A stretch of 64,000 nt of DNA from a virus. Taxonomy: Duplodnaviria > Heunggongvirae > Uroviricota > Caudoviricetes. The notes under the pieces were generated by a model, which saw nothing but the letters and a program-made list of their open reading frames with translations, ran no database searches and had not been told where the DNA came from. The stretch is from the IMG/VR virus record IMGVR_UViG_2718218305_000006; one strand, 5' to 3'. Position numbers and translations under genes: made by a program. The stretch's first letter is position 1; every line of letters begins with the position of its first letter. This document shows, one piece after another, positions 1 through 47,889 of the stretch.

Positions 1-214
1 TTGCTGCGCTTTCTATACCAGGTAATTATGAAGTAATAGTTCTTGGGAATGGTGAGTTTATCGTAATGCCATTGCCATCTGATGTTATTCTGATCAGCAA
101 AGAATCGCATGCGGATTCGGTCAGTTACTTCAGCATTAAAAGAGACTAGATTATAATGCTGTAGTAAAGCCAGCCTGAACAACTGGCGTCTGTCGCACCA
201 TTACGAGGATAGTA

Positions 215-493
215 GTGGTGCATTACAAGAAACTTAACAATTCTGATAATTCAGCCGTCTTTGCCAGCAGGCACGGGCGGTGTTCTCATGCATTCAAATC
301 TGACTGGTTCCAGCATGACCCATGCACTGAAGAACAGGCCGAATGGCTGATTCAGTGCTACCGCAGACGTGGTTACGAGTTTCAGAAAGATCTCAGCTTC
401 GATCGTCGTCACTGGATAATCTCCGCCAGGCTCCCTTATTCCGAACGCCCACCGCGTCCGTCCCGCACATTCCAGCAGCGCATCTGGAGGTAA
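215..493 (+). CDS. hypothetical protein (92 aa) immediately upstream of DUF968 gene
   Basis: ORF ends ..QQRIWR overlapping the next start; same slot and similar C-terminal pattern as 41150..41422 (..RQRVWR) in prophage 2. Confidence 0.35.
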   Translation: MVHYKKLNNSDNSAVFASRHGRCSHAFKSDWFQHDPCTEEQAEWLIQCYRRRGYEFQKDLSFDRRHWIISARLPYSERPPRPSRTFQQRIWR

Positions 494-3319: not shown

Positions 3320-3477
3320 AAAAGTTCTTGCAATTTTAGCCATAAACTGCTTCAATTCCGGTACGCTTCGCAAAGCTGTATCGCGAGGCGAACCAAGCGC
3401 ATGAACTTTACCAGAACCCGCCATTGAGCGGGTTTTTTATTGCGGAATTAATTACGGACCGTTATTATTCTGCTCCC

Positions 3478-3553
3478 GGCCCTTTAGCTCAGTGGTGAGA
3501 GCGAGCGACGCATAATCGCCAGGTCGCTGGTTCGAATCCAGTACAACGCGCCA
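3478..3553 (+). pseudogene. chimeric tRNA remnant (tRNA-Ile 5' part, tRNA-Arg 3' acceptor strand)
   Basis: 5' 56 nt near-identical to tRNA-Ile at 44708; 3' ACAACGCGCCA matches tRNA-Arg at 44884; acceptor strands cannot pair; position 33 is G instead of T. Confidence 0.5.
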
Positions 3554-3567
3554 CACTTATTTTCCCT

Positions 3568-3593
3568 GGCTCGCTTTTGCGGGCCTTTTTTTT
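3568..3593 (+). terminator. rho-independent terminator after tRNA remnant
   Basis: GGCTCGC-TTTT-GCGGGCC stem-loop followed by a T8 run. Confidence 0.55.
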
Positions 3594-3659
3594 AAATGTC
3601 TCACAATTCAGGCGGTTGACTGTTGTCTGGTTTGCGGGGAGTTTGTTAAAAGAAACTGG

Positions 3660-3765: not shown

Positions 3766-4032
3766 CAAGAAAAAGAATGTGCATGCAAACATGCCCCTCT
3801 CCGGAGGGGCATTTTTTATGGGTAAAAAATGCCCGAATGGGTTCGGGCAATAGCATGAGATACTGATATTGTTGTGTTGTTATCGTGTGGATTTTAACCA
3901 GGGTTTATCAGGCTGCGCAACTGCGTGGCCTTTTTTCATTTCTTGGGCTGTAGTCCCCGTGTGTCATTCAGGCTTCCGGACTACAGCCCACTCCATATCT
4001 GATTTAATACACTATCCCGGCCGGGAGGAATA

Positions 4033-5979
4033 ATGACATTTAAACATTATGATGTTGTCAGGGCGGCGTCGCCGTCAGACCTTGCTGATGCACTTGCTCA
4101 AAAAATTCGTGAAGGATGGCAACCATACGGCGGGCCGTTTTCTTCGTATACGGATGATGGCGCAGCACTTATTCAGGCGATTGTCGCAGAAGGTGATGTG
4201 AGCACACCTGTTGTGGTGAAGCCGACAGGTGGAGAAGGTGCAGTAATCAGCGCCACCAGAGACCCGGAGTATTACTTTGTTGTGGTTCTGGCGGGGCAGT
4301 CAAACAGCATGGCATATGGTGAAGGCCTTCCGCTGCCGGAGACATATGACCGTCCGGACCCGCGTATTAAGCAGCTGGCGCGCCGCAGTACGGTGACACC
4401 GGGCGGTGCAGCATGCAAATATAACGACATCATTCCGGCGGACCATTGTCTGCATGATGTGCAGGACATGAGCCGCCTTAACCATCCGAAAGCGGACCTG
4501 TCAAAGGGGCAGTACGGTACCGTGGGGCAGGGGCTGCATATTGCCAAAAAACTGCTGCCGTTTATACCGGAGAATGCGGGCATTCTGCTGGTTCCGTGCT
4601 GTCGTGGTGGTTCAGCGTTCACCACCGGAGCTGATGGCACATACAGTGACGCGAGTGGTGCCTCGGAGAATTCAACCCGCTGGGGTGTGGACAAGCCGCT
4701 GTATAAGGACCTTATCGGTCGAACAAAAGCAGCACTGAAGAAGAACCCGAAAAATGTGCTGTTTGCCGTGGTGTGGATGCAGGGGGAATTTGATTTTGAC
4801 GGCACGCCCGGAAATCACGCAGCACAGTTTGGTGCGCTGGTTGATAAATTCCGTGCAGACCTGACGGATATGGCAGGTCAGTGCGTCGGTGGCTCTGCTG
4901 GCGGTGTTCCCTGGATATGTGGAGATACGACGTATTTCTGGAAGCAGAAGAACGAATCCACGTACCAGACGGTGTACGGCAGCTATAAAAACAAAACGGA
5001 AAAGAATATCCATTTCGTACCGTTCATGACCGATGAGAACGGGGTGAATGTGCCGACGAACAAACCGGAAGAAGACCCGGACATTCCGGGTATCGGATAT
5101 TACGGTTCGAAATGGCGTGACAGCTCAGCCACCTGGACGTCACAGGACAGGGCGAGCCATTTCAGCGCCTGGGCACGCCGTGGGATTATTTCCGACCGTC
5201 TGGCAACGGCGATTTTGCGCCATGCGGGAAGAGTGGCGCTAAACGCGGGGGCATCATCGACAGTATCAGAGGTGCGCCCGTCATCGCCTTCCGGTGCAGA
5301 AGCCACAGGCGTCACAACACTGCTCTCTTACCTTGCCAGCGAGTCAGAGGGAAGCCTGAAAGTACAGGGATGGTCAGCCAGTGGCGGCAGGGCAGAAGTG
5401 GTCAGCGATGCGGAGGGAACCGGAGGTAAGGCAGTGAAGCTGACCAAGGAAGCCGGTAAAAGCAGCTGGGTGCTGGAGTACGCCGCGGGCAACGGTGCGG
5501 CTCTGTTACAGAAAGGGGGGCAGATTCGCTGCCGCTTTAAGGTTTCGGGAGCGCTGGCTGCGAACCAGTATGTTATGGCGTTTTACTGGCCGGTATCTTC
5601 ACTGCCACAGGGCGTTGCCCTGACCGGAGACGGGGGGAATAACCTGCTGGCAGCGTTCTACATCCAGACAGATGCAAAAGACCTGAATGTGATGTACCAC
5701 AATGCGAAAGTAGCGACAAACAACCTGAAACTGGGAACCTTTGGCGCATTTGATAACGAATGGCATACGCTGGCTTTCCGCTTTGCCGGGAATAACAGCC
5801 TTCAGGTGACGCCGGTTATTGATGGTCAGGATGGCACACCGTTCACGCTGACGCAGTCACCGGTCAGTGCATTTGCGGCGGATAAACTGCATGTGACAGA
5901 CATTACCAGGAATGCGACTTACCCGGTGCTGATTGACAGCATTGCGGTGGAAGTGAACAACGCGGATGCCGCGGCATGA
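4033..5979 (+). CDS. nanS-p: prophage sialate O-acetylesterase NanS-p (DUF1737 + SGNH/SASA domain)
   Basis: 648 aa; GGAGG RBS; N-terminal MTFKHYDVVRAASPSDLA (DUF1737-like) and VVLAGQSNSMAYGEG SGNH block I; same slot as nanS-p downstream of stx in Stx phages. Confidence 0.8.
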   Translation: MTFKHYDVVRAASPSDLADALAQKIREGWQPYGGPFSSYTDDGAALIQAIVAEGDVSTPVVVKPTGGEGAVISATRDPEYYFVVVLAGQSNSMAYGEGLPLPETYDRPDPRIKQLARRSTVTPGGAACKYNDIIPADHCLHDVQDMSRLNHPKADLSKGQYGTVGQGLHIAKKLLPFIPENAGILLVPCCRGGSAFTTGADGTYSDASGASENSTRWGVDKPLYKDLIGRTKAALKKNPKNVLFAVVWMQGEFDFDGTPGNHAAQFGALVDKFRADLTDMAGQCVGGSAGGVPWICGDTTYFWKQKNESTYQTVYGSYKNKTEKNIHFVPFMTDENGVNVPTNKPEEDPDIPGIGYYGSKWRDSSATWTSQDRASHFSAWARRGIISDRLATAILRHAGRVALNAGASSTVSEVRPSSPSGAEATGVTTLLSYLASESEGSLKVQGWSASGGRAEVVSDAEGTGGKAVKLTKEAGKSSWVLEYAAGNGAALLQKGGQIRCRFKVSGALAANQYVMAFYWPVSSLPQGVALTGDGGNNLLAAFYIQTDAKDLNVMYHNAKVATNNLKLGTFGAFDNEWHTLAFRFAGNNSLQVTPVIDGQDGTPFTLTQSPVSAFAADKLHVTDITRNATYPVLIDSIAVEVNNADAAA

Positions 5980-6115
5980 TAAAAAAAGCCGCCAGTTGCC
6001 TGAGACCTCTGGCGGTGTGAGATTCATGGAGAATCAAGGAAAGATACTACCACTTTCGTCATCGGCATTTTTAAATGAAAACTGTTTACTTAGTCAACAA
6101 TAACGGAAAGAAATT

Positions 6116-6295
6116 ATGACATTTCTGAACCAGTTAATGCTGTACTTCTGTACGGTGGTCTGTGTGCTGTATCTCCTTTCGGGTGGGTACAGGGCCATGC
6201 GTGACTTCTGGCGCAGACAGATTGACAAAAGGGCCGCTGAGAAAATCAGCGCCGGTCAGTCAGCCGGAAGCAAACCCGAAGAGCCGCTCATTTAG
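6116..6295 (+). CDS. small hydrophobic protein (59 aa)
   Basis: ATG with upstream GGAAAG; translation MTFLNQLMLYFCTVVCVLYLLSGG.. has one predicted TM helix; below the ORF-track size cutoff. Confidence 0.3.
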   Translation: MTFLNQLMLYFCTVVCVLYLLSGGYRAMRDFWRRQIDKRAAEKISAGQSAGSKPEEPLI

Positions 6296-6335
6296 CGGCA
6301 ACTTTCTTAATCACACCTTTCGACGAGAAAATCCC

Positions 6336-6608
6336 ATGTCAGAAATTACATCCCTGGTCACTGCAGAGGCAGTGAAGGAAGTCCTGCGCTCTGAAGAAGT
6401 CCTGAGCGCACTGAAACAAAAACTTCGCCATAACCTGGAAGCGCGTCTTGATGCAGAGGTTGATGCCATTCTGGATGAGCTGCTTGGTGTACAGGCAGAG
6501 CCACCGACTGAAGCGGGAGATACCACCGCAGAGAGCGGTGAAGTTCAGCCTGAATCACCGGTCGCCGATGCGACTGAACCTCAACCCGAATCGGTCATGA
6601 TGCTGTAA
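6336..6608 (+). CDS. hypothetical acidic helical protein (90 aa)
   Basis: Internal ATG of ORF 6162..6608; [21 protein letters not shown]..; between nanS-p and holin. Confidence 0.35.
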
Positions 6609-42841: not shown

Positions 42842-43408
42842 GTGAGCATAAATATGATATACCCGGAAATTACAGGCAAAAGCGGTGAGCATTTACGCCT
42901 GAAAACGCTGGAAAGTGTCTGGATCCAGGGGAAACTGCGTATGTGGGGGCGTTGGTCGTATATTGGCGACGGTAAGACGGGAAATATGTTCAACCAATTA
43001 CTGACCTCTAAAAAGCTGACAAAAACGGCAATTAACGAGGCGCTCCGGAGGATGAAAAAAGCGGGTCTGGACAAACCTGAACTTGAGGCTTTTTTGCGGG
43101 ATATGATCAACGGCAATCAAAAAAGCTGGCTGGCACATTGTACCGATTCAGAGGCGTTAATAATCGATAGGGTTATTGGTGAAGTACTGGCAGGTTATCC
43201 CGGGCTGCTCAATGTTCTGAGTCAGCGTTATGTGGGGCGGGGGATGACTAAGCGCAAAATGGCTGAATTGCTGAATGATGCACATCCGGAATGGAGTTTA
43301 AGAACCTGTGAAAGACGCATTGAGCATTGGCTAAAGGTGGCAGAATTTATTTTGTACAAACCAATGGTTATGGCTTTTGGTATAGAGAAAAAAGTTATTG
43401 CTTTTTGA
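42842..43408 (+). CDS. late-gene antiterminator Q-like protein
   Basis: 188 aa; N-terminal two-thirds near-identical to 1922..2488, C-terminus diverged; followed by conserved element and terminator. Confidence 0.75.
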   Translation: MSINMIYPEITGKSGEHLRLKTLESVWIQGKLRMWGRWSYIGDGKTGNMFNQLLTSKKLTKTAINEALRRMKKAGLDKPELEAFLRDMINGNQKSWLAHCTDSEALIIDRVIGEVLAGYPGLLNVLSQRYVGRGMTKRKMAELLNDAHPEWSLRTCERRIEHWLKVAEFILYKPMVMAFGIEKKVIAF

Positions 43409-43487
43409 CGTAAAAACTGCTTCAATTCCGGTAAGCTTCGCAAAGCTGTACCGCGAGGCGAATAGCAGACATGGACATTTGAAAGAG

Positions 43488-43509
43488 CCCGCTTTTTGCG
43501 GGTTTTTTT
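43488..43509 (+). terminator. rho-independent terminator (tR'-like)
   Basis: CCCGC-TTTTT-GCGGG followed by a T7 run about 80 nt after Q. Confidence 0.5.
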
Positions 43510-43965: not shown

Positions 43966-44679
43966 ATGGCTGTTGTCTGTTCAGTTATCATGGTTTGCTC
44001 CCCAATTAATATTTTTCTTGAAAAGGATACGTTGTCACTTAAGCCAGGCTCAGTCGTTCTGGCCACCAAATGCATCAGGGAGCTTTTCCTTATGCATTAT
44101 GGCAAAGTTAAAATTGTCGATATAAGCGAATCCGTCGTAAGTCAATATCTGGAAAGTCAGCATAAGCTGACGAGGACTCGTCTGACTGACATTCCGCTTT
44201 ACCTGTTGCTGGAACCCAACAATCCTGCGTTGGCTGCGGCTTTAATTACCAGCCAGGGATTTTCCGGAGAGGTCACGGATATGTTTCTTATGATGGCCTG
44301 CCTGTCTCTGTTTGAAACAGATGAACGGATGTCATTGTTTTTAAGTGGATGTTTATCCAGCATAAGTGCCAAAGTCAGGGCGATAATTCAGACAGATATA
44401 TCAGCAAGCTGGACGCTTGGTGCGATTGCTCTACAGTTGCATATGAGTGAGAGTTTGTTAAAGACAAAACTGAAAAATGAAGGGGGCATGTTCAGTCGCT
44501 TGTTGCTGGAAGAGCGGATGCGTGTTGCTGTAAATATGTTATGTTCCCGGTATGGATATGGACAGGCTGTAGCAGAAAAATGTGGTTATTCAAGCCGGTC
44601 CTACTTTATTTCTGTATTTCACCGCTATTATGGCTTCCCGCCAGACAGATATGTATCCAGGCAAGGGCTTGATTATTGA
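43966..44679 (+). CDS. AraC-family transcriptional regulator
   Basis: C-terminal AraC HTH (..SWTLGAIALQLHMSESLLKTKLK..RSYFISVFHRYYGFPP); located between Q and the tRNA genes. Confidence 0.7.
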   Translation: MAVVCSVIMVCSPINIFLEKDTLSLKPGSVVLATKCIRELFLMHYGKVKIVDISESVVSQYLESQHKLTRTRLTDIPLYLLLEPNNPALAAALITSQGFSGEVTDMFLMMACLSLFETDERMSLFLSGCLSSISAKVRAIIQTDISASWTLGAIALQLHMSESLLKTKLKNEGGMFSRLLLEERMRVAVNMLCSRYGYGQAVAEKCGYSSRSYFISVFHRYYGFPPDRYVSRQGLDY

Positions 44680-44707
44680 TTTTCATCTGATTATTATTTT
44701 TTGGCTC

Positions 44708-44883: not shown

Positions 44884-44960
44884 GCGTTGTTAGCTCAGCC
44901 GGACAGAGCAATTGCCTTCTAAGCAATCGGTCAGTGGTTCGACTCCACTACAACGCGCCA
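44884..44960 (+). tRNA. tRNA-Arg (anticodon TCT, argO-like)
   Basis: Acceptor GCGTTGT/ACAACGC, anticodon loop CTTCTAA, T-loop GGTTCGACTCC, CCA encoded. Confidence 0.85.
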
Positions 44961-44973
44961 CACTTATTTTCCA

Positions 44974-44997
44974 GGCTCGCTTCGGCGGGCCTTTTTT
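44974..44997 (+). terminator. rho-independent terminator after tRNA-Arg
   Basis: GGCTCGC-TTCG-GCGGGCC followed by TTTTTT. Confidence 0.55.
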
Positions 44998-45129
44998 GTA
45001 TCTGCGCCACGCCCGGCGCATACCAACCACAGAGCCTTTCGGGGGTGAGCTTACGGAGTGGTCAGTGTGACTTTCTCTGTGGGCAGATCGCTCCCGGGCG
45101 TTGGCTCACCCACCCAAAGGAACGTCACG

Positions 45130-45561
45130 ATGTTTGGAATCTTCAAAAAGAAAACCCGCAGAGCGGCAACGGAAATTAAAAAGTTTGAAAAACGCGATCT
45201 GGCACAGGTGGTGATTAACGCCGCATACCTGGTGGCCTGTGCAGATGGTGAATGTGAGGCATCCGAGAAAGCGAAGATCGAACAGGTACTGCGTAATCAG
45301 CCTGCGCTGTCCGCGTTTACGTCAGAAATTAATGCGATTAGCGCAACCATTATCGGTCAGCTGGATACGAACTTTAAAACTGGTCGTCGTGCGGCGTTAC
45401 GTGAGATTGAGGATGTGAAACACGATACGCGTGAAGCGGAAGATGTGCTGGATGTGGCGGTGGCCATTGCGGAGGCAGACGGCGAAATTGAGCCGGAAGA
45501 GCGCAAGGTGCTGGAAGAGATTGCCGGTGTTCTGGGTCTTCGTCTGGAGAATCACCTGTGA
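45130..45561 (+). CDS. TerB-like domain protein
   Basis: 143 aa from an internal ATG; paired ..ACADGECEASEKAKIEQVL.. and ..IAEADGEIEPEERKVLEEIAGVLGL.. motifs typical of TerB-like proteins. Confidence 0.5.
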   Translation: MFGIFKKKTRRAATEIKKFEKRDLAQVVINAAYLVACADGECEASEKAKIEQVLRNQPALSAFTSEINAISATIIGQLDTNFKTGRRAALREIEDVKHDTREAEDVLDVAVAIAEADGEIEPEERKVLEEIAGVLGLRLENHL

Positions 45562-45725
45562 CGGTAAAACTGCGCCTGGCTGTGGCTGCACTCCTGCTGT
45601 TTCTGGTGGTGATGGTGGATTTCACCAGCAGAATCATGTCGGTGCTGGCGGATGGGGTGCTGGTCTGCGGCATTGTGGTATTGCTGTGGCCGGTGATAAA
45701 AAGAAACAGCCTGCATAATGCTTGA
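45558..45725 (+). CDS. small membrane protein (55 aa), GTG start overlapping TerB-like stop
   Basis: VTVKLRLAVAALLLFLVVMVDF..VLVCGIVVLLWPV, two hydrophobic helices; below the ORF-track cutoff. Confidence 0.3.
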   Translation: MTVKLRLAVAALLLFLVVMVDFTSRIMSVLADGVLVCGIVVLLWPVIKRNSLHNA

Positions 45726-45759
45726 TTTTTTTGTTTGCTGTTTATTAAAAACACTTCTG

Positions 45760-45865
45760 CATGGTGAATCCCCCTGTGCGGAGGGGCGATCAGCAACCAG
45801 GTATATGGGATAATCGCGGATTCAGGTGCTGATACTGAATTCACCGGGAGGCACCCGGCACCATG
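45760..45865 (+). other. conserved 106-nt structured element upstream of nanS-p (copy 2)
   Basis: Same termini CATGGTG..CACCATG and core as 3660..3765, with a cluster of substitutions in the middle. Confidence 0.3.
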
Positions 45866-46038
45866 CTTTGCCACAAAAGTGTTGTTTCTGTTTTTCTCAA
45901 ACTATCATCGTTATCCCTTTATTTCCGGCTGCGCATGGCGCGGCTTTTTTTTACGACCAGCCACTGGCAGATGGTCATCCTGTGATTTGATTCCGGTTCC
46001 GGCTTTTTAACTCTGTTCCTGTACACGGGAGAAATTCG

Positions 46039-47889
46039 ATGTCGATTAAACATTATGATGTTGTCAGGGCGGCGTCGCCGTCAGACCTTGCGGAAAAGCT
46101 GACACACAAACTGAAAGAGGGCTGGCAGCCGTTTGGTAGTCCGGTGGCCATAACCCCTTATACCCTGATGCAGGCGATTACAGCAGAAGGTGATGTGGTG
46201 GTCAGTGGTGCAACTGAGCCGGATTGGTACTACGTCATCGTACTGGCCGGGCAGTCCAATGCCATGGCTTACGGTGAAGGGCTTCCGCTGCCGGATTCAT
46301 ACGATGCTCCGGATCCGCGCATTAAACAGCTGGCGCGCCGCAGTACAGTGACGCCGGGTGGGGCTGCCTGCAGATATAACGATATTATTCCGGCCGACCA
46401 CTGCCTGCATGATGTGCAGGATATGAGTACGCTGAATCATCCGAAGGCAGACCTGAGCAAAGGGCAGTACGGCTGTGTCGGCCAGGGGTTACATATTGCC
46501 AAAAAACTGCTCCCGTATATCCCGAATAACGCGGGGATCCTGCTGGTACCATGCTGTCGTGGTGGTTCGGCATTTACCCAGGGCGCGGAGGGGATATTCA
46601 GCGAGTCCACGGGGGCCAGCCAGGATTCGGCGCGCTGGGGTGTGGGTAAACCGTTATATCAGGACCTGATTGCGCGCACCAAAGCTGCATTACAGAAGAA
46701 CCCGAAAAATGTGTTGCTGGCGGTGTGCTGGATGCAGGGAGAGTTTGACATGAGCGCCGCCACCCACGCACAGCAACCTGCGCTGTTTACAGCCATGCTG
46801 ACACAGTTTCGTGCTGACCTCTCCGTGTTTAACGCGCAGTGCCATGGTGGCAGTGCTGCAGATGTGCCGTGGATTTGTGGTGACACGACGTATTACTGGA
46901 AAAATACATACGCTACCCAGTACGACACCGTGTACGGCGGGTATAAAAACAGGGAGAGTGAGGGCGTTTATTTTGTGCCCTTCATGACAGACGGTAACGG
47001 CGTCAATACCGCCACTAACGCGCCGGCAGAAGATCCGGATATTCCGGCATCAGGATATTACGGTGCGGCATCGAGAACGAATGGAAACCAGGTATCATCA
47101 AACCGCCCGACACATTTCAGTTCATGGGCGCGCAGGAGCATTATTCCGGATCGTCTGGCAACCGCTATTCTGAACGCAGCCGGGCGCACCTCAGCCTTCA
47201 TCAGTGGTAAGGCACCGGAAATCAAACCCTCGCCCGGCGGCAACACGCCATCGGGTCCGTCTGCAGATACGTCCGTTCGCACAATCTCCCTGCTGCCGGC
47301 AGCCGGAGAGGCTGCTGCGCAGGGCTGGAGCATTAAGGATGGCGGAATTCAGTTGTCAGATGGTGTATTTAAGATCACCAGGCAGAGCAATAAAACCTGG
47401 TCCCTGACGCATCCGGTGGATGACGCAATTACCCTGCTGACACAGGGCGGCAGACTGACCTGTAAGTTCCGCCTGTCAGGCGCACTGACCAACAATCAGT
47501 TCGGGCTGGGGATTTATCTGTATACGGACGCTCCCGTTCCTGATGGTGTGGCGATGACGGGTACCGGTAATCCGTTCCTGATGTCGTACTTCACTCAGAC
47601 CACTGACGGCAGAGTGAATCTGATGCATCACAGGAAAGCCGGAAACACGAAGCTGGGGGAGTTCGGCGATTACGGTAACGACTGGCAGACGCTGGAGCTG
47701 GTGTTCACCGCCGGCAGTGCCACGGTTACTCCGAAACTGAATGGAGTGGCTGGCCCGGCATTCCAGGTTATAAAAGACAGTCTGACACTGGGACTGAATG
47801 CGCTGACGCTGACGGATGTTACAAAAAATGCAGCGTATGGCGTTGAGATAGAAAGTCTGATGCTGGAGATAAATGCACCGGCAGCATAA
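46039..47889 (+). CDS. nanS-p: prophage sialate O-acetylesterase NanS-p paralogue
   Basis: 616 aa; MSIKHYDVVRAASPSDLA.. and VIVLAGQSNAMAYGEG; catalytic domain highly similar to 4033..5979, C-terminal domain diverged. Confidence 0.8.
   Translation: MSIKHYDVVRAASPSDLAEKLTHKLKEGWQPFGSPVAITPYTLMQAITAEGDVVVSGATEPDWYYVIVLAGQSNAMAYGEGLPLPDSYDAPDPRIKQLARRSTVTPGGAACRYNDIIPADHCLHDVQDMSTLNHPKADLSKGQYGCVGQGLHIAKKLLPYIPNNAGILLVPCCRGGSAFTQGAEGIFSESTGASQDSARWGVGKPLYQDLIARTKAALQKNPKNVLLAVCWMQGEFDMSAATHAQQPALFTAMLTQFRADLSVFNAQCHGGSAADVPWICGDTTYYWKNTYATQYDTVYGGYKNRESEGVYFVPFMTDGNGVNTATNAPAEDPDIPASGYYGAASRTNGNQVSSNRPTHFSSWARRSIIPDRLATAILNAAGRTSAFISGKAPEIKPSPGGNTPSGPSADTSVRTISLLPAAGEAAAQGWSIKDGGIQLSDGVFKITRQSNKTWSLTHPVDDAITLLTQGGRLTCKFRLSGALTNNQFGLGIYLYTDAPVPDGVAMTGTGNPFLMSYFTQTTDGRVNLMHHRKAGNTKLGEFGDYGNDWQTLELVFTAGSATVTPKLNGVAGPAFQVIKDSLTLGLNALTLTDVTKNAAYGVEIESLMLEINAPAA

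What the first reader, a model, noticed from the sequence alone, without database searches (positions are those of the whole stretch)
45130..45725. TerB-like gene plus small membrane protein occupy the slot where Stx phages carry stxAB
The order Q, tRNA-Ile/tRNA-Arg, cargo, nanS-p is the Stx-phage layout. In prophage 2 the cargo between the tRNA terminator and nanS-p is a TerB-like protein with an overlapping 55-aa two-helix membrane ORF (GTGA overlap), not stx. In prophage 1 the same slot is essentially empty. Function of the pair is unknown; it would be transcribed from the late promoter.
Basis: partly seen in the sequence, partly recalled or inferred. Interest (0 to 1): 0.55.

Follow-up and report, generated by a model that had tools for sequence, protein, structure and literature searches.

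The report
Phage tciAB module in stx slot
A TerB-like gene and its tiny membrane-protein partner sit exactly where Shiga-toxin phages carry stx, but the pair is the already annotated, widespread phage module tciA-tciB, whose function has never been tested.

Summary
Window 45130-45561 encodes a 143-aa TerB-family protein and 45558-45725 a 55-aa hydrophobic DUF3927 protein, with a GTGA stop/start overlap. Both genes are under purifying selection. They lie between the tRNA-Ile/tRNA-Arg terminator and nanS-p in a non-Stx lambdoid prophage of E. coli O157:H7 EDL933 (OI-57, CP-933O). Alignment with phage 933W shows the same left and right flanks that bracket stx2AB. It is not new. RefSeq annotates both genes, PHROGs calls them tciA/tciB, and phage JLK-2012 is annotated with the identical Q-tRNA-tciA-tciB-yjhS layout. 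About 15% of complete E. coli genomes carry the pair, with a median of 6 copies. The pair recurs in lambdoid, P1, P2/186-like, N4-like and jumbo phages, where it sits in operons of the lytic cycle or in the genomes of obligately lytic phages. Function is known only "by homology". My best inference is that TciB anchors the cytoplasmic TerB-fold TciA at the inner membrane during lytic growth, protecting membrane or ion integrity until scheduled lysis. An STnc100 sRNA directly follows tciB. Interest is low to moderate.

The parts
42854..43408 (+). Late-gene antiterminator Q (DUF1133 / Phage_antitermQ type) of prophage 2
   Evidence: Pfam DUF1133 3.7e-105 and Phage_antitermQ 5.9e-08. RefSeq CDS mapped.
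43435..43509 (+). Short leader ending in an intrinsic terminator (AGCCCGC-TTTTT-GCGGGT + T run). Candidate pR'-type leader RNA; unverified.
   Evidence: Sequence. Weak sub-threshold isrK hit, 19.8 bits. The assignment is inference only.
43966..44679 (+). [not shown]
   Evidence: Pfam HTH_AraC 2.9e-13 and NCBIfam YdeO 2.1e-30. [quoted passage not shown] PsrB = z2104 in OI-57 (PMC10877973).
44708..44783 (+). tRNA-Ile2 (anticodon CAT; ARAGORN labels it Met). A promoter-like site lies at 44669-44697.
44884..44960 (+). tRNA-Arg (TCT)
44973..45002 (+). Intrinsic terminator after the tRNAs; left border of the cargo slot
   Evidence: Eight-pair stem plus T run. Conserved with 933W, JLK-2012 and prophage 1.
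45031..45107 (+). Structured 5' leader of tciA (hairpin), part of the cassette
   Evidence: MFE -57.9 kcal/mol for 44996-45145, z = -2.16. Inverted repeat I1. Near-identical in JLK-2012.
45130..45561 (+). tciA: 143-aa cytoplasmic TerB-family protein
45558..45725 (+). tciB: 55-aa hydrophobic DUF3927 protein, start overlapping the tciA stop (GTGA)
   Evidence: Pfam DUF3927 4.3e-17. phrog_1470 'TciB-like' 4e-30. Hydropathy. dN/dS about 0.27-0.31. Conserved motif across phage lineages.
45730..45902 (+). STnc100-family sRNA element; right border of the cargo slot
   Evidence: Rfam RF02076 104.7 bits (gathering 47), E 8.6e-23. The same element follows stx2B in 933W.
45927..45953 (+). Second intrinsic terminator, upstream of nanS-p
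   Evidence: Eight-pair stem plus T run. Conserved in all four aligned loci.
46039..47889 (+). nanS-p (YjhS-like sialate O-acetylesterase), followed by holin and endolysin
   Evidence: Pfam DUF1737, SASA and DUF6645. RefSeq annotation.

Best explanation
The pair is the lambdoid-prophage copy of the phage module tciA-tciB, first named in phage P1.

Shown:
- The two genes are translationally coupled.
- TciA is a soluble, acidic six-helix TerB-fold protein. It keeps both D-G-x5-E acidic motifs and has a conserved basic-hydrophobic N-terminal tail.
- TciB is a 55-aa hydrophobic peptide with K/R at both ends and a conserved VDFTS...DG...WP motif.
- The cassette sits in the late operon, between two terminators, in the same position as stx2AB.

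Inferred:
- TciB inserts in the inner membrane, probably as an N-in/C-in hairpin.
- It recruits TciA to the cytoplasmic face, giving a membrane-tethered TerB module comparable to TerB-TerC, DjlA and YebE.
- The module is made only when Q lets RNA polymerase read through the terminators, that is, during lytic growth.
- Its likely job is to stabilise inner-membrane and ion (divalent-cation or proton-motive-force) integrity of the infected cell against outside insults such as pore-forming colicins or superinfecting phage. That would keep assembly going and let holin-triggered lysis happen on schedule.

Identity and architecture are firm. The physiological role is an inference.
For: Identity: Pfam, PHROGs and RefSeq assignments. 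Similarity to P1 TciA (40.6% identity over all 143 residues) and P1 TciB (58% over residues 21-51).

Fold and motifs. D39/E46 and D117/E124 are conserved across lineages.

TciA has no membrane segment (maximum 19-residue hydropathy 1.21), and its N-terminal 22 residues carry 9 K/R.

Coupling is conserved: GTGA, TGATG or TAAATG junctions in lambdoid, P1 and N4-like phages.

Partnership:
- 98 of 110 distinct TciA alleles in 324 viral loci have a TciB ORF immediately downstream.
- All 9 bacterial species-representative loci found do too.
- In a high-GC lineage, TciA overlaps (GTGA again) a non-homologous 67-aa single-pass membrane ORF. The need for a small membrane partner therefore outlives the particular partner.

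Lytic context in independent lineages:
- Lambdoid late operon.
- P1 C1-repressed ban operon.
- P2/186-like prophages, after cox and (in the E. coli one) fil, before the replication gene.
- N4-like and jumbo phages, whose families I know as strictly virulent (my knowledge, not tested).

No promoter-like site lies in the leader, and terminators sit on both sides.

In the published EDL933 RNA-seq, the CDS between psrB and yjhS are near zero in most uninduced conditions.

TerB is reported to partner the membrane protein TerC, and ter operons give colicin and phage resistance (PMC11003894; PMC9603915).
Against: - No direct evidence of a TciA-TciB interaction, of membrane localisation or of metal binding.
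- AF2 models TciB as one long helix, not a hairpin.
- Each protein can occur without the other. TciA is alone in Pseudomonas phage PMBT3 and Vibrio phage K481. TciB occurs without TciA in phage 434.
- No natural fusions support an interaction. The few long hits are frameshifts or chimeras.
- P1 tciA, tciB and tciC are non-essential by CRISPRi (PMC10695390), and about half of P1 subgroup-1 phage-plasmids have lost the operon.
- A protective role only minutes before lysis is of uncertain value.
- Q-dependent expression was not measured.
Confidence: 0.45

Rival explanations
1. Lysogenic-conversion cargo. The pair is expressed in the lysogen and gives the host tellurite, oxidative-stress or colicin resistance, as ter operons do.
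Against: - No promoter-like site in the leader, and a terminator directly upstream.
- The pair is also carried by N4-like and jumbo phages, which have no lysogen to benefit (their virulent lifestyle is my knowledge, not tested).
- In P1 and P2-like elements it sits in repressor-controlled lytic operons.
- TerB alone is considered insufficient for tellurite resistance without the other ter genes (PMC8421299).
- O157:H7 already has full ter islands (PMC3064760, abstract).
- Expression is near zero in most uninduced conditions.
Confidence: 0.1
2. Anti-defence decoy. Phage TciA mimics host TerB and so disables a Ter-type or other TerB-dependent phage-inhibition system of the host. TciB places it at the membrane complex.
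For: ter operons are reported to inhibit phages. The pair sits in lytic operons or in the genomes of virulent phages, across many lineages. The full-length TerB architecture is retained.
Against: Similarity to canonical TerB is only distant (E 2.9e-07), which is not what a recent mimic would show. The pair is present in phages of hosts not known to carry ter. No match to known defence or counter-defence models (PADLOC). No experimental hint.
Confidence: 0.1
3. Lysis-timing regulator. TciB (with TciA) acts directly on the holin, as an antiholin-like or holin-modulating membrane factor.
For: In lambdoid prophages the pair lies in the late operon about 2.6 kb upstream of the class II holin. TciB has the small hydrophobic two-segment layout typical of holin-associated proteins.
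Against: In P1, P2/186-like, N4-like and jumbo phages the pair is not next to lysis genes. Lambdoid partners carry different holins. nanS-p and an sRNA lie between the pair and the holin.
Confidence: 0.1
4. Host-takeover factor that blocks cell division or another envelope process early in infection (the 'inhibition of cell division' part of the tci name).
For: In an E. coli P2/186-like prophage the pair directly follows a Fil-family gene. In P1 it shares an operon with a dicF-like element. The weak NCBIfam similarity to the DjlA central domain points to envelope signalling.
Against: The name comes only from ter-operon phenotypes 'by homology'. In lambdoid phages the pair is late, whereas division inhibitors such as DicB lie in the early-left operon of this same prophage. 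No similarity to known division inhibitors.
Confidence: 0.1
5. Functionless hitch-hiking cargo of a recombination hot spot.
For: The Q-to-nanS-p interval is highly mosaic. In different phages it holds stx, methylases, toxin-antitoxin genes, AraC regulators, or nothing. The pair is dispensable in P1.
Against: Purifying selection acts on both genes. The pair, its order and its translational coupling are conserved across at least five unrelated phage lineages.
Confidence: 0.05

Closest known systems
Phage P1 tciA-tciB-tciC operon (PHROG 632 / 1470); the same annotation appears in Escherichia phage JLK-2012
   Same: Homologous TerB-like gene followed by a homologous DUF3927 gene with overlapping stop and start. 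JLK-2012 has the identical Q-tRNA-tciA-tciB-yjhS-holin layout at 96.5% protein identity.
   Different: There is no tciC. The 31-aa ORF after tciB shows no similarity to P1 TciC and lies inside an STnc100 sRNA. The P1 copy sits in the C1-controlled ban operon, whereas this one sits in the Q-dependent late operon.
TerB of the terZABCDE tellurite/colicin/phage-resistance operon (solved structure 2JXU)
   Same: Same family, length and fold, with two D-G-x5-E acidic repeats and a similar N-terminal tail.
   Different: Only distant sequence similarity. No TerC, TerD, TerE or TerZ nearby. The partner is a 55-aa peptide instead of the multi-pass TerC.
stx2AB cassette of phage 933W and other Stx phages
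   Same: Same insertion slot, with the same tRNA-Arg terminator on the left and the same STnc100-type element, terminator and nanS-p on the right. Both are late-operon cargo.
   Different: Unrelated proteins. None of 80 lambdoid tciAB loci from IMG/VR has stx within 4 kb.
Membrane-tethered TerB-like domains: DjlA (N-terminal anchor + TerB-like + J domain) and YebE/DUF533
   Same: A TerB-like domain held at the cytoplasmic face of the inner membrane. There are weak profile hits to both (DUF533 1e-05; DjlA 4.2e-07).
   Different: Here anchor and domain are separate polypeptides. There is no J domain, and both hits fall below the family cut-offs, so this is not a member.
Small phage inner-membrane exclusion proteins such as T4 Imm or HK97 gp15 (comparison from my own knowledge)
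   Same: A small hydrophobic phage protein made during infection that could guard the inner membrane. This is a 'works like' comparison only.
   Different: No sequence relationship was tested or expected. Those proteins act alone, without a TerB-type partner.

Membership tests
TerB family (Pfam PF05099) | Sequence match above the curated cut-off | tested here: met
   53.4 bits against a cut-off of 24.4, E 3.7e-14, residues 31-138. phmmer to solved TerB 2JXU gives E 2.9e-07 over residues 15-137.
TerB family (Pfam PF05099) | All-helical TerB-like fold | tested here: met
   [not shown]
TerB family (Pfam PF05099) | Two acidic D-G-x5-E repeats (the proposed metal-binding residues; that proposal is from my knowledge of the TerB literature) | tested here: met
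   D39/E46 and D117/E124 are invariant or nearly invariant across 18 diverse phage TciA sequences. They align to the SDG...E repeats of 2JXU. Metal binding itself was not tested.
ter operon (terZABCDE) system | TerB encoded together with TerC and TerD-family genes | tested here: not met
   No ter genes appear in the annotated 64-kb window. The neighbours are tRNAs, tciB, an sRNA and nanS-p.
ter operon (terZABCDE) system | Confers tellurite, colicin or phage resistance | not testable with these tools
   A phenotype is needed. The literature treats solitary phage terB as probably inactive for tellurite resistance (PMC8421299).
Phage tciAB(C) module | TciA homologue | tested here: met
   phrog_632 1e-68 over the full length. 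40.6% identity to P1 TciA over 143 aa.
Phage tciAB(C) module | TciB (DUF3927) homologue immediately downstream, translationally coupled | tested here: met
   phrog_1470 4e-30 and Pfam DUF3927 4.3e-17. GTGA overlap. The same arrangement is found for 98 of 110 TciA alleles.
Phage tciAB(C) module | Third small gene tciC | tested here: not met
   The only ORF after tciB (45718-45813, 31 aa) has no alignment to P1 TciC and overlaps STnc100. tciC is also absent from JLK-2012, so it is not universal.
Stx-phage cargo slot | Position between the tRNA-Arg terminator and the conserved element upstream of nanS-p | tested here: met
   Four-way alignment with 933W, JLK-2012 and EDL933 prophage 1.
Stx-phage cargo slot | Carries stxA/stxB | tested here: not met
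   The slot holds tciAB. There are no Stx2A or Stx2B tblastn hits in 80 related loci.
DjlA co-chaperone | Full-length match including the C-terminal J domain | tested here: not met
   29.8 bits against a cut-off of 162. Only residues 87-138 match the central region.
Known anti-phage defence systems (PADLOC-DB) | Significant match to a defence-system protein model | tested here: not met
   TciA gives only a 35-residue hit to candidate PDC-S48 at E 0.0052. TciB gives nothing.

The most novel reading that the evidence does not exclude
tciAB is a pan-lineage, lytic-cycle guard of the inner membrane. It would be a TerB-based two-protein device that phages of at least five unrelated families deploy to block depolarising insults (superinfecting DNA injection, pore-forming colicins, membrane-acting abortive-infection effectors) and so prevent premature holin firing or abortive death. 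That would make it a new class of phage exclusion or anti-abortive module, and the first assigned function for a TerB domain in phage biology.
Probability: 0.2. Interest if true: 0.6.

Novelty: already known. Interest (0 to 1): 0.25.

Why it matters
For this locus the result is mainly a clarification. The 'mystery cargo' in the stx slot of the non-Stx lambdoid prophages of O157:H7 is a named, annotated and very common module, not a new toxin-like payload.

The wider point is that tciAB has had no tested function since the P1 annotation assigned it one 'by homology'. Yet it is conserved, translationally coupled, under purifying selection, and spread across lambdoid, P1, P2-like, N4-like and jumbo phages, where it sits in operons of the lytic cycle or in obligately lytic genomes. 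EHEC strains carry about 4-10 copies.

That pattern argues against the usual 'tellurite resistance' label. It points to a role in the infected cell's membrane physiology, which is cheap to test. Knowing the role would also show what non-Stx prophages gain from the slot that Stx phages use for toxin.

Tried and rejected
- **tciC equivalent.** The 31-aa ORF at 45718-45813 shows no similarity to P1 TciC and lies inside an STnc100 match. Rejected.
- **Natural TciA-TciB fusions as interaction evidence.** The two 'fusions' (P0126, P0186) are more than 93% identical to E. coli alleles, so they are probably frameshifts; I did not inspect their sequences. The long hits in the profile search of 1.84 billion representatives are frameshifts or assembly chimeras. 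No support.
- **Defence-system models.** PADLOC gave nothing meaningful.
- **Co-occurrence of stx and tciAB.** None in 80 IMG/VR lambdoid loci. The three closest phage records I inspected (Evi, JLK-2012, PPyecE_EH1910) show no stx near the pair. No systematic count over all genomes was possible.
- **AF2 of TciB, to confirm a hairpin.** It returned a single long helix, so topology is left open. The tool reports no contacts, so a fused-chain 'complex' prediction would have been uninformative and was not run.
- **Association with tRNA genes.** Common in lambdoid, P1 and jumbo phages, but absent within 1 kb in the four N4-like loci and not seen in the P2-like loci examined. Treated as a side observation, not a rule.
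- **The search for related loci with the diverse alignment A1 on genome contigs** failed because no stretch was conserved enough. A2 returned only 9 loci.
- **The P1 genome paper** (PMC523184) is not held. The P1 annotation notes in GenBank were used instead.
- **HnrS.** Whether the leader after Q equals the published HnrS sRNA could not be decided, because the paper text gives no sequence.

Full report

**The observation.**
- An ORF starts at ATG 45130, with AAGGA 8 nt upstream, and ends at TGA 45559-45561 (143 aa).
- A second ORF starts at GTG 45558, inside the GTGA overlap, and ends at 45725 (55 aa).
- RefSeq annotates exactly these as 'tellurite resistance TerB family protein' and 'DUF3927 family protein'.
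- Pfam confirms both well above the curated cut-offs.
- Against seven diverged prophage alleles, dN/dS is 0.02-0.12 for the first gene and 0.27-0.31 for the second. Both are therefore genuine, constrained genes.

**Anatomy of the surroundings, all on the + strand.**
- Q antiterminator, 42854-43408 (Pfam DUF1133/antitermQ).
- A short leader ending in a terminator, 43435-43509.
- A small ORF, then an AraC/YdeO-like regulator, 43966-44679.
- A promoter-like site, 44669-44697, then tRNA(CAT) and tRNA-Arg(TCT). RefSeq calls the first one Ile, and the P1 annotation explains the CAT anticodon as tRNA-Ile2.
- An intrinsic terminator, 44973-44992.
- A 137-nt leader with a moderately stable hairpin, z = -2.16, and no sigma-70-like site.
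- The gene pair.
- A strong Rfam match to the sRNA STnc100 at 45730-45902, 104.7 bits against a gathering score of 47.
- A second terminator, 45927-45945.
- nanS-p, 46039-47889, then holin and endolysin.

**The 'stx slot' claim.** I aligned this region with 933W, with phage JLK-2012 and with the equivalent region of EDL933 prophage 1, which lies just outside the window.
- All four share the tRNA-Arg and its terminator. All but prophage 1 also share the next ~10 bases.
- All four share the STnc100-type element, the downstream terminator and the start of nanS-p.
- Between those flanks 933W carries stx2A and stx2B, this prophage and JLK-2012 carry the TerB/DUF3927 pair, and prophage 1 carries nothing.

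In 80 related IMG/VR lambdoid loci the pair is combined with several different Q types, with or without the AraC gene. It is almost always followed by nanS-p, and no stx is found within 4 kb.

**What the proteins are.**

*TciA*
- It matches the solved TerB of Klebsiella (2JXU) over nearly its whole length, E 2.9e-07.
- AlphaFold2 with a 37-sequence alignment gives a confident six-helix model, pLDDT 82.6 and pTM 0.77.
- Across 18 diverse homologues the two D-G-x5-E repeats (D39/E46, D117/E124) are invariant or nearly so. The N-terminal M-F/L-G...K-K tail is also conserved, with G3 and K7 invariant.
- It has no membrane segment, and its first 22 residues carry nine K/R.

*TciB*
- It has two hydrophobic stretches separated by DFTSR, with K/R at both ends. 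That fits an N-in/C-in hairpin, but AF2 draws a single helix, so topology is open.
- The motif VDFTS...S.L.DG.LV...WP is shared by lambdoid, P1, N4-like, P2-like and phage 434 versions.
- A profile search of 1.84 billion representative proteins finds only 110 clusters. Essentially all are stand-alone proteins of 20-90 aa, and the few longer ones are frameshifts or chimeras.

**It is a known module.**
- PHROGs assigns the two proteins to phrog_632 ('tellurite resistance', 1e-68) and phrog_1470 ('TciB-like inhibition of cell division or resistance to colicin', 4e-30).
- tblastn finds TciA in 131 phage records and TciB in 29.
- P1 carries tciA-tciB-tciC, annotated 'by homology'.
- JLK-2012 is annotated Q, three tRNAs, tciA, tciB, yjhS, S, R, Rz.
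- PPyecE_EH1910 calls the first gene 'TciA/TerB-like'.
- The 596-bp pair occurs in 839 of 5426 complete E. coli genomes, with a median of 6 and up to 10 copies per positive genome.
- The literature offers no experiment on function. P1 tciA, tciB and tciC are non-essential in a CRISPRi screen (PMC10695390). A survey of P1-like phage-plasmids says the role of the variable tciABC operon 'remains unclear' (PMC9603915). A paper on phage PMBT3 doubts that a solitary terB gives tellurite resistance (PMC8421299).

**Comparative evidence bearing on mechanism.**

1. *The pair is a unit.*
   - 98 of 110 distinct TciA alleles in 324 viral loci have a TciB ORF directly downstream.
   - All nine loci found in species-representative bacterial genomes do too.
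   - Among the exceptions, one is a frameshift fusion, one is cut by a contig end, and one has a divergent TciB (phrog_1470 1.2e-14).
   - Seven high-GC loci have TciA overlapping, again by GTGA, an unrelated 67-aa single-pass membrane ORF, which is followed by a CsrA homologue.
   - Stop/start overlap or abutment is conserved in P1 and N4-like phages.
2. *The two parts are separable.* TciA is solitary in PMBT3 and Vibrio phage K481. Phage 434 has TciB without TciA, in the same Q-to-nanS-p slot.
3. *The context is the lytic cycle.*
   - Lambdoid late operon.
   - P1 ban operon behind C1 operators.
   - P2/186-like prophages, between cox (and fil, in the E. coli one) and the replication gene.
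   - N4-like and jumbo Erwinia phages, whose families I know to be virulent; this was not tested here.
4. *Published EDL933 RNA-seq.* The CDS between psrB and yjhS show reads in LB and on radish sprouts (values of 17-27) and about zero in most other uninduced conditions. The caveats are unverified gene assignment and multi-copy mapping.

**Best explanation.** The firm part: this is the lambdoid copy of tciAB, a translationally coupled TerB-fold protein plus a small inner-membrane peptide, carried as late-operon cargo in the stx-equivalent slot.

The inferred part has three steps.
- TciB tethers TciA at the cytoplasmic face of the inner membrane. This is functionally like TerB with TerC (PMC11003894) or the anchored TerB-like domains of DjlA and YebE (sub-threshold profile hits).
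- The module is made during lytic growth.
- It buffers membrane and ion integrity against depolarising insults, so that assembly and holin timing are not cut short.

This borrows from the colicin- and phage-resistance phenotypes ascribed to ter operons. It also rests on the established fact (my knowledge) that holins fire when the proton-motive force collapses. I put about 0.45 on the whole statement. Identity and architecture are near-certain; the specific physiological role is perhaps 0.25-0.3.

**Rivals.**
- Lysogenic conversion to tellurite or oxidative-stress resistance is disfavoured by the terminators, the missing promoter, the presence in virulent phages and the missing ter partners.
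- An anti-Ter decoy, a direct holin regulator and a division or takeover factor each keep about 0.1.
- Neutral cargo is disfavoured by selection and by conservation across lineages.

**Verdict.** It is of low to moderate interest, mainly as a reminder that a very common, multi-lineage phage module still has no tested function.

Noticed in passing
window 45730-45902 (+): Strong match to the sRNA family STnc100 (RF02076, 104.7 bits against a gathering score of 47), immediately after tciB and before a terminator. The same element follows stx2B in 933W. A 2026 preprint relates STnc100 to the prophage sRNA PasD, found upstream of the sialate esterase gene. This copy lacks the ~30-nt upstream segment (CACAATTCAG..TTGAC) present in 933W, JLK-2012 and prophage 1.
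   Followed up: partly
[not shown]
   Followed up: partly
window 43435-43509 (+): About 70 nt just after Q, ending in an intrinsic terminator (AGCCCGC-TTTTT-GCGGGT plus a T run), with a weak sub-threshold isrK hit. It looks like a pR'-type leader RNA and could correspond to the multicopy late-region sRNA HnrS/EcOnc10-12 or a StxS-like RNA. The published text gave no sequence to compare.
   Followed up: partly
L004 (P1), L007 (Erwinia phage ChrisDB), L013-L092 (lambdoid loci): tciAB sits next to tRNA genes in three unrelated phage types. In lambdoid phages 62 of 77 contexts have tRNAs within 1 kb upstream. In P1 there are tRNAs on both sides, including a tRNA-Ile2(CAT) 275 nt downstream. In a jumbo Erwinia phage there are tRNAs on both sides. 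No tRNA lies within 1 kb in the four N4-like loci, and none was seen in the P2-like loci.
   Followed up: partly
L266, L267, L281, L308, L310, L314, L315 (about 3429-3644 in each): In high-GC (Pseudomonas-like) viral contigs the TciA stop overlaps (GTGA/ATGA) the start of an unrelated 67-aa ORF with one N-terminal membrane segment and a Cys-containing tail (phrog_27356). A CsrA homologue follows (Pfam 2.5e-25). This looks like non-homologous replacement of the small membrane partner.
   Followed up: partly
L012 (phage 434) 1612-2844: Phage 434 carries TciB without TciA in the same Q-to-nanS-p slot, flanked by a 247-aa multi-pass membrane protein (phrog_1521, unknown function) and a 62-aa membrane protein.
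   Followed up: partly
L094 / L350 (Pantoea prophage) 3863-6461: Downstream of a Q-like antiterminator, TciA plus a 50-aa TciB-like ORF is flanked by three further weakly TerB-like paralogues (TciA profile E 1e-08 to 1e-10; Pfam sub-threshold) and a HicB-like gene.
   Followed up: no
window 45031-45107 (+): The tciA 5' leader folds into a long hairpin (arms 45043-45055 / 45099-45111), ending just before the ribosome-binding site. The z-score is -2.16 against shuffles, and the sequence is conserved in JLK-2012. It could be a processing or translational control element.
   Followed up: partly
window 1-429 and EDL933 record 1859128-1859884 (L003 7129-7885): The window begins inside the nanS-p gene of the upstream prophage. 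That prophage's slot between tRNA-Arg and nanS-p is 523 bp with no annotated CDS. A DNA methyltransferase occupies the position that PsrB has in prophage 2.
   Followed up: yes
[not shown]
   Followed up: partly
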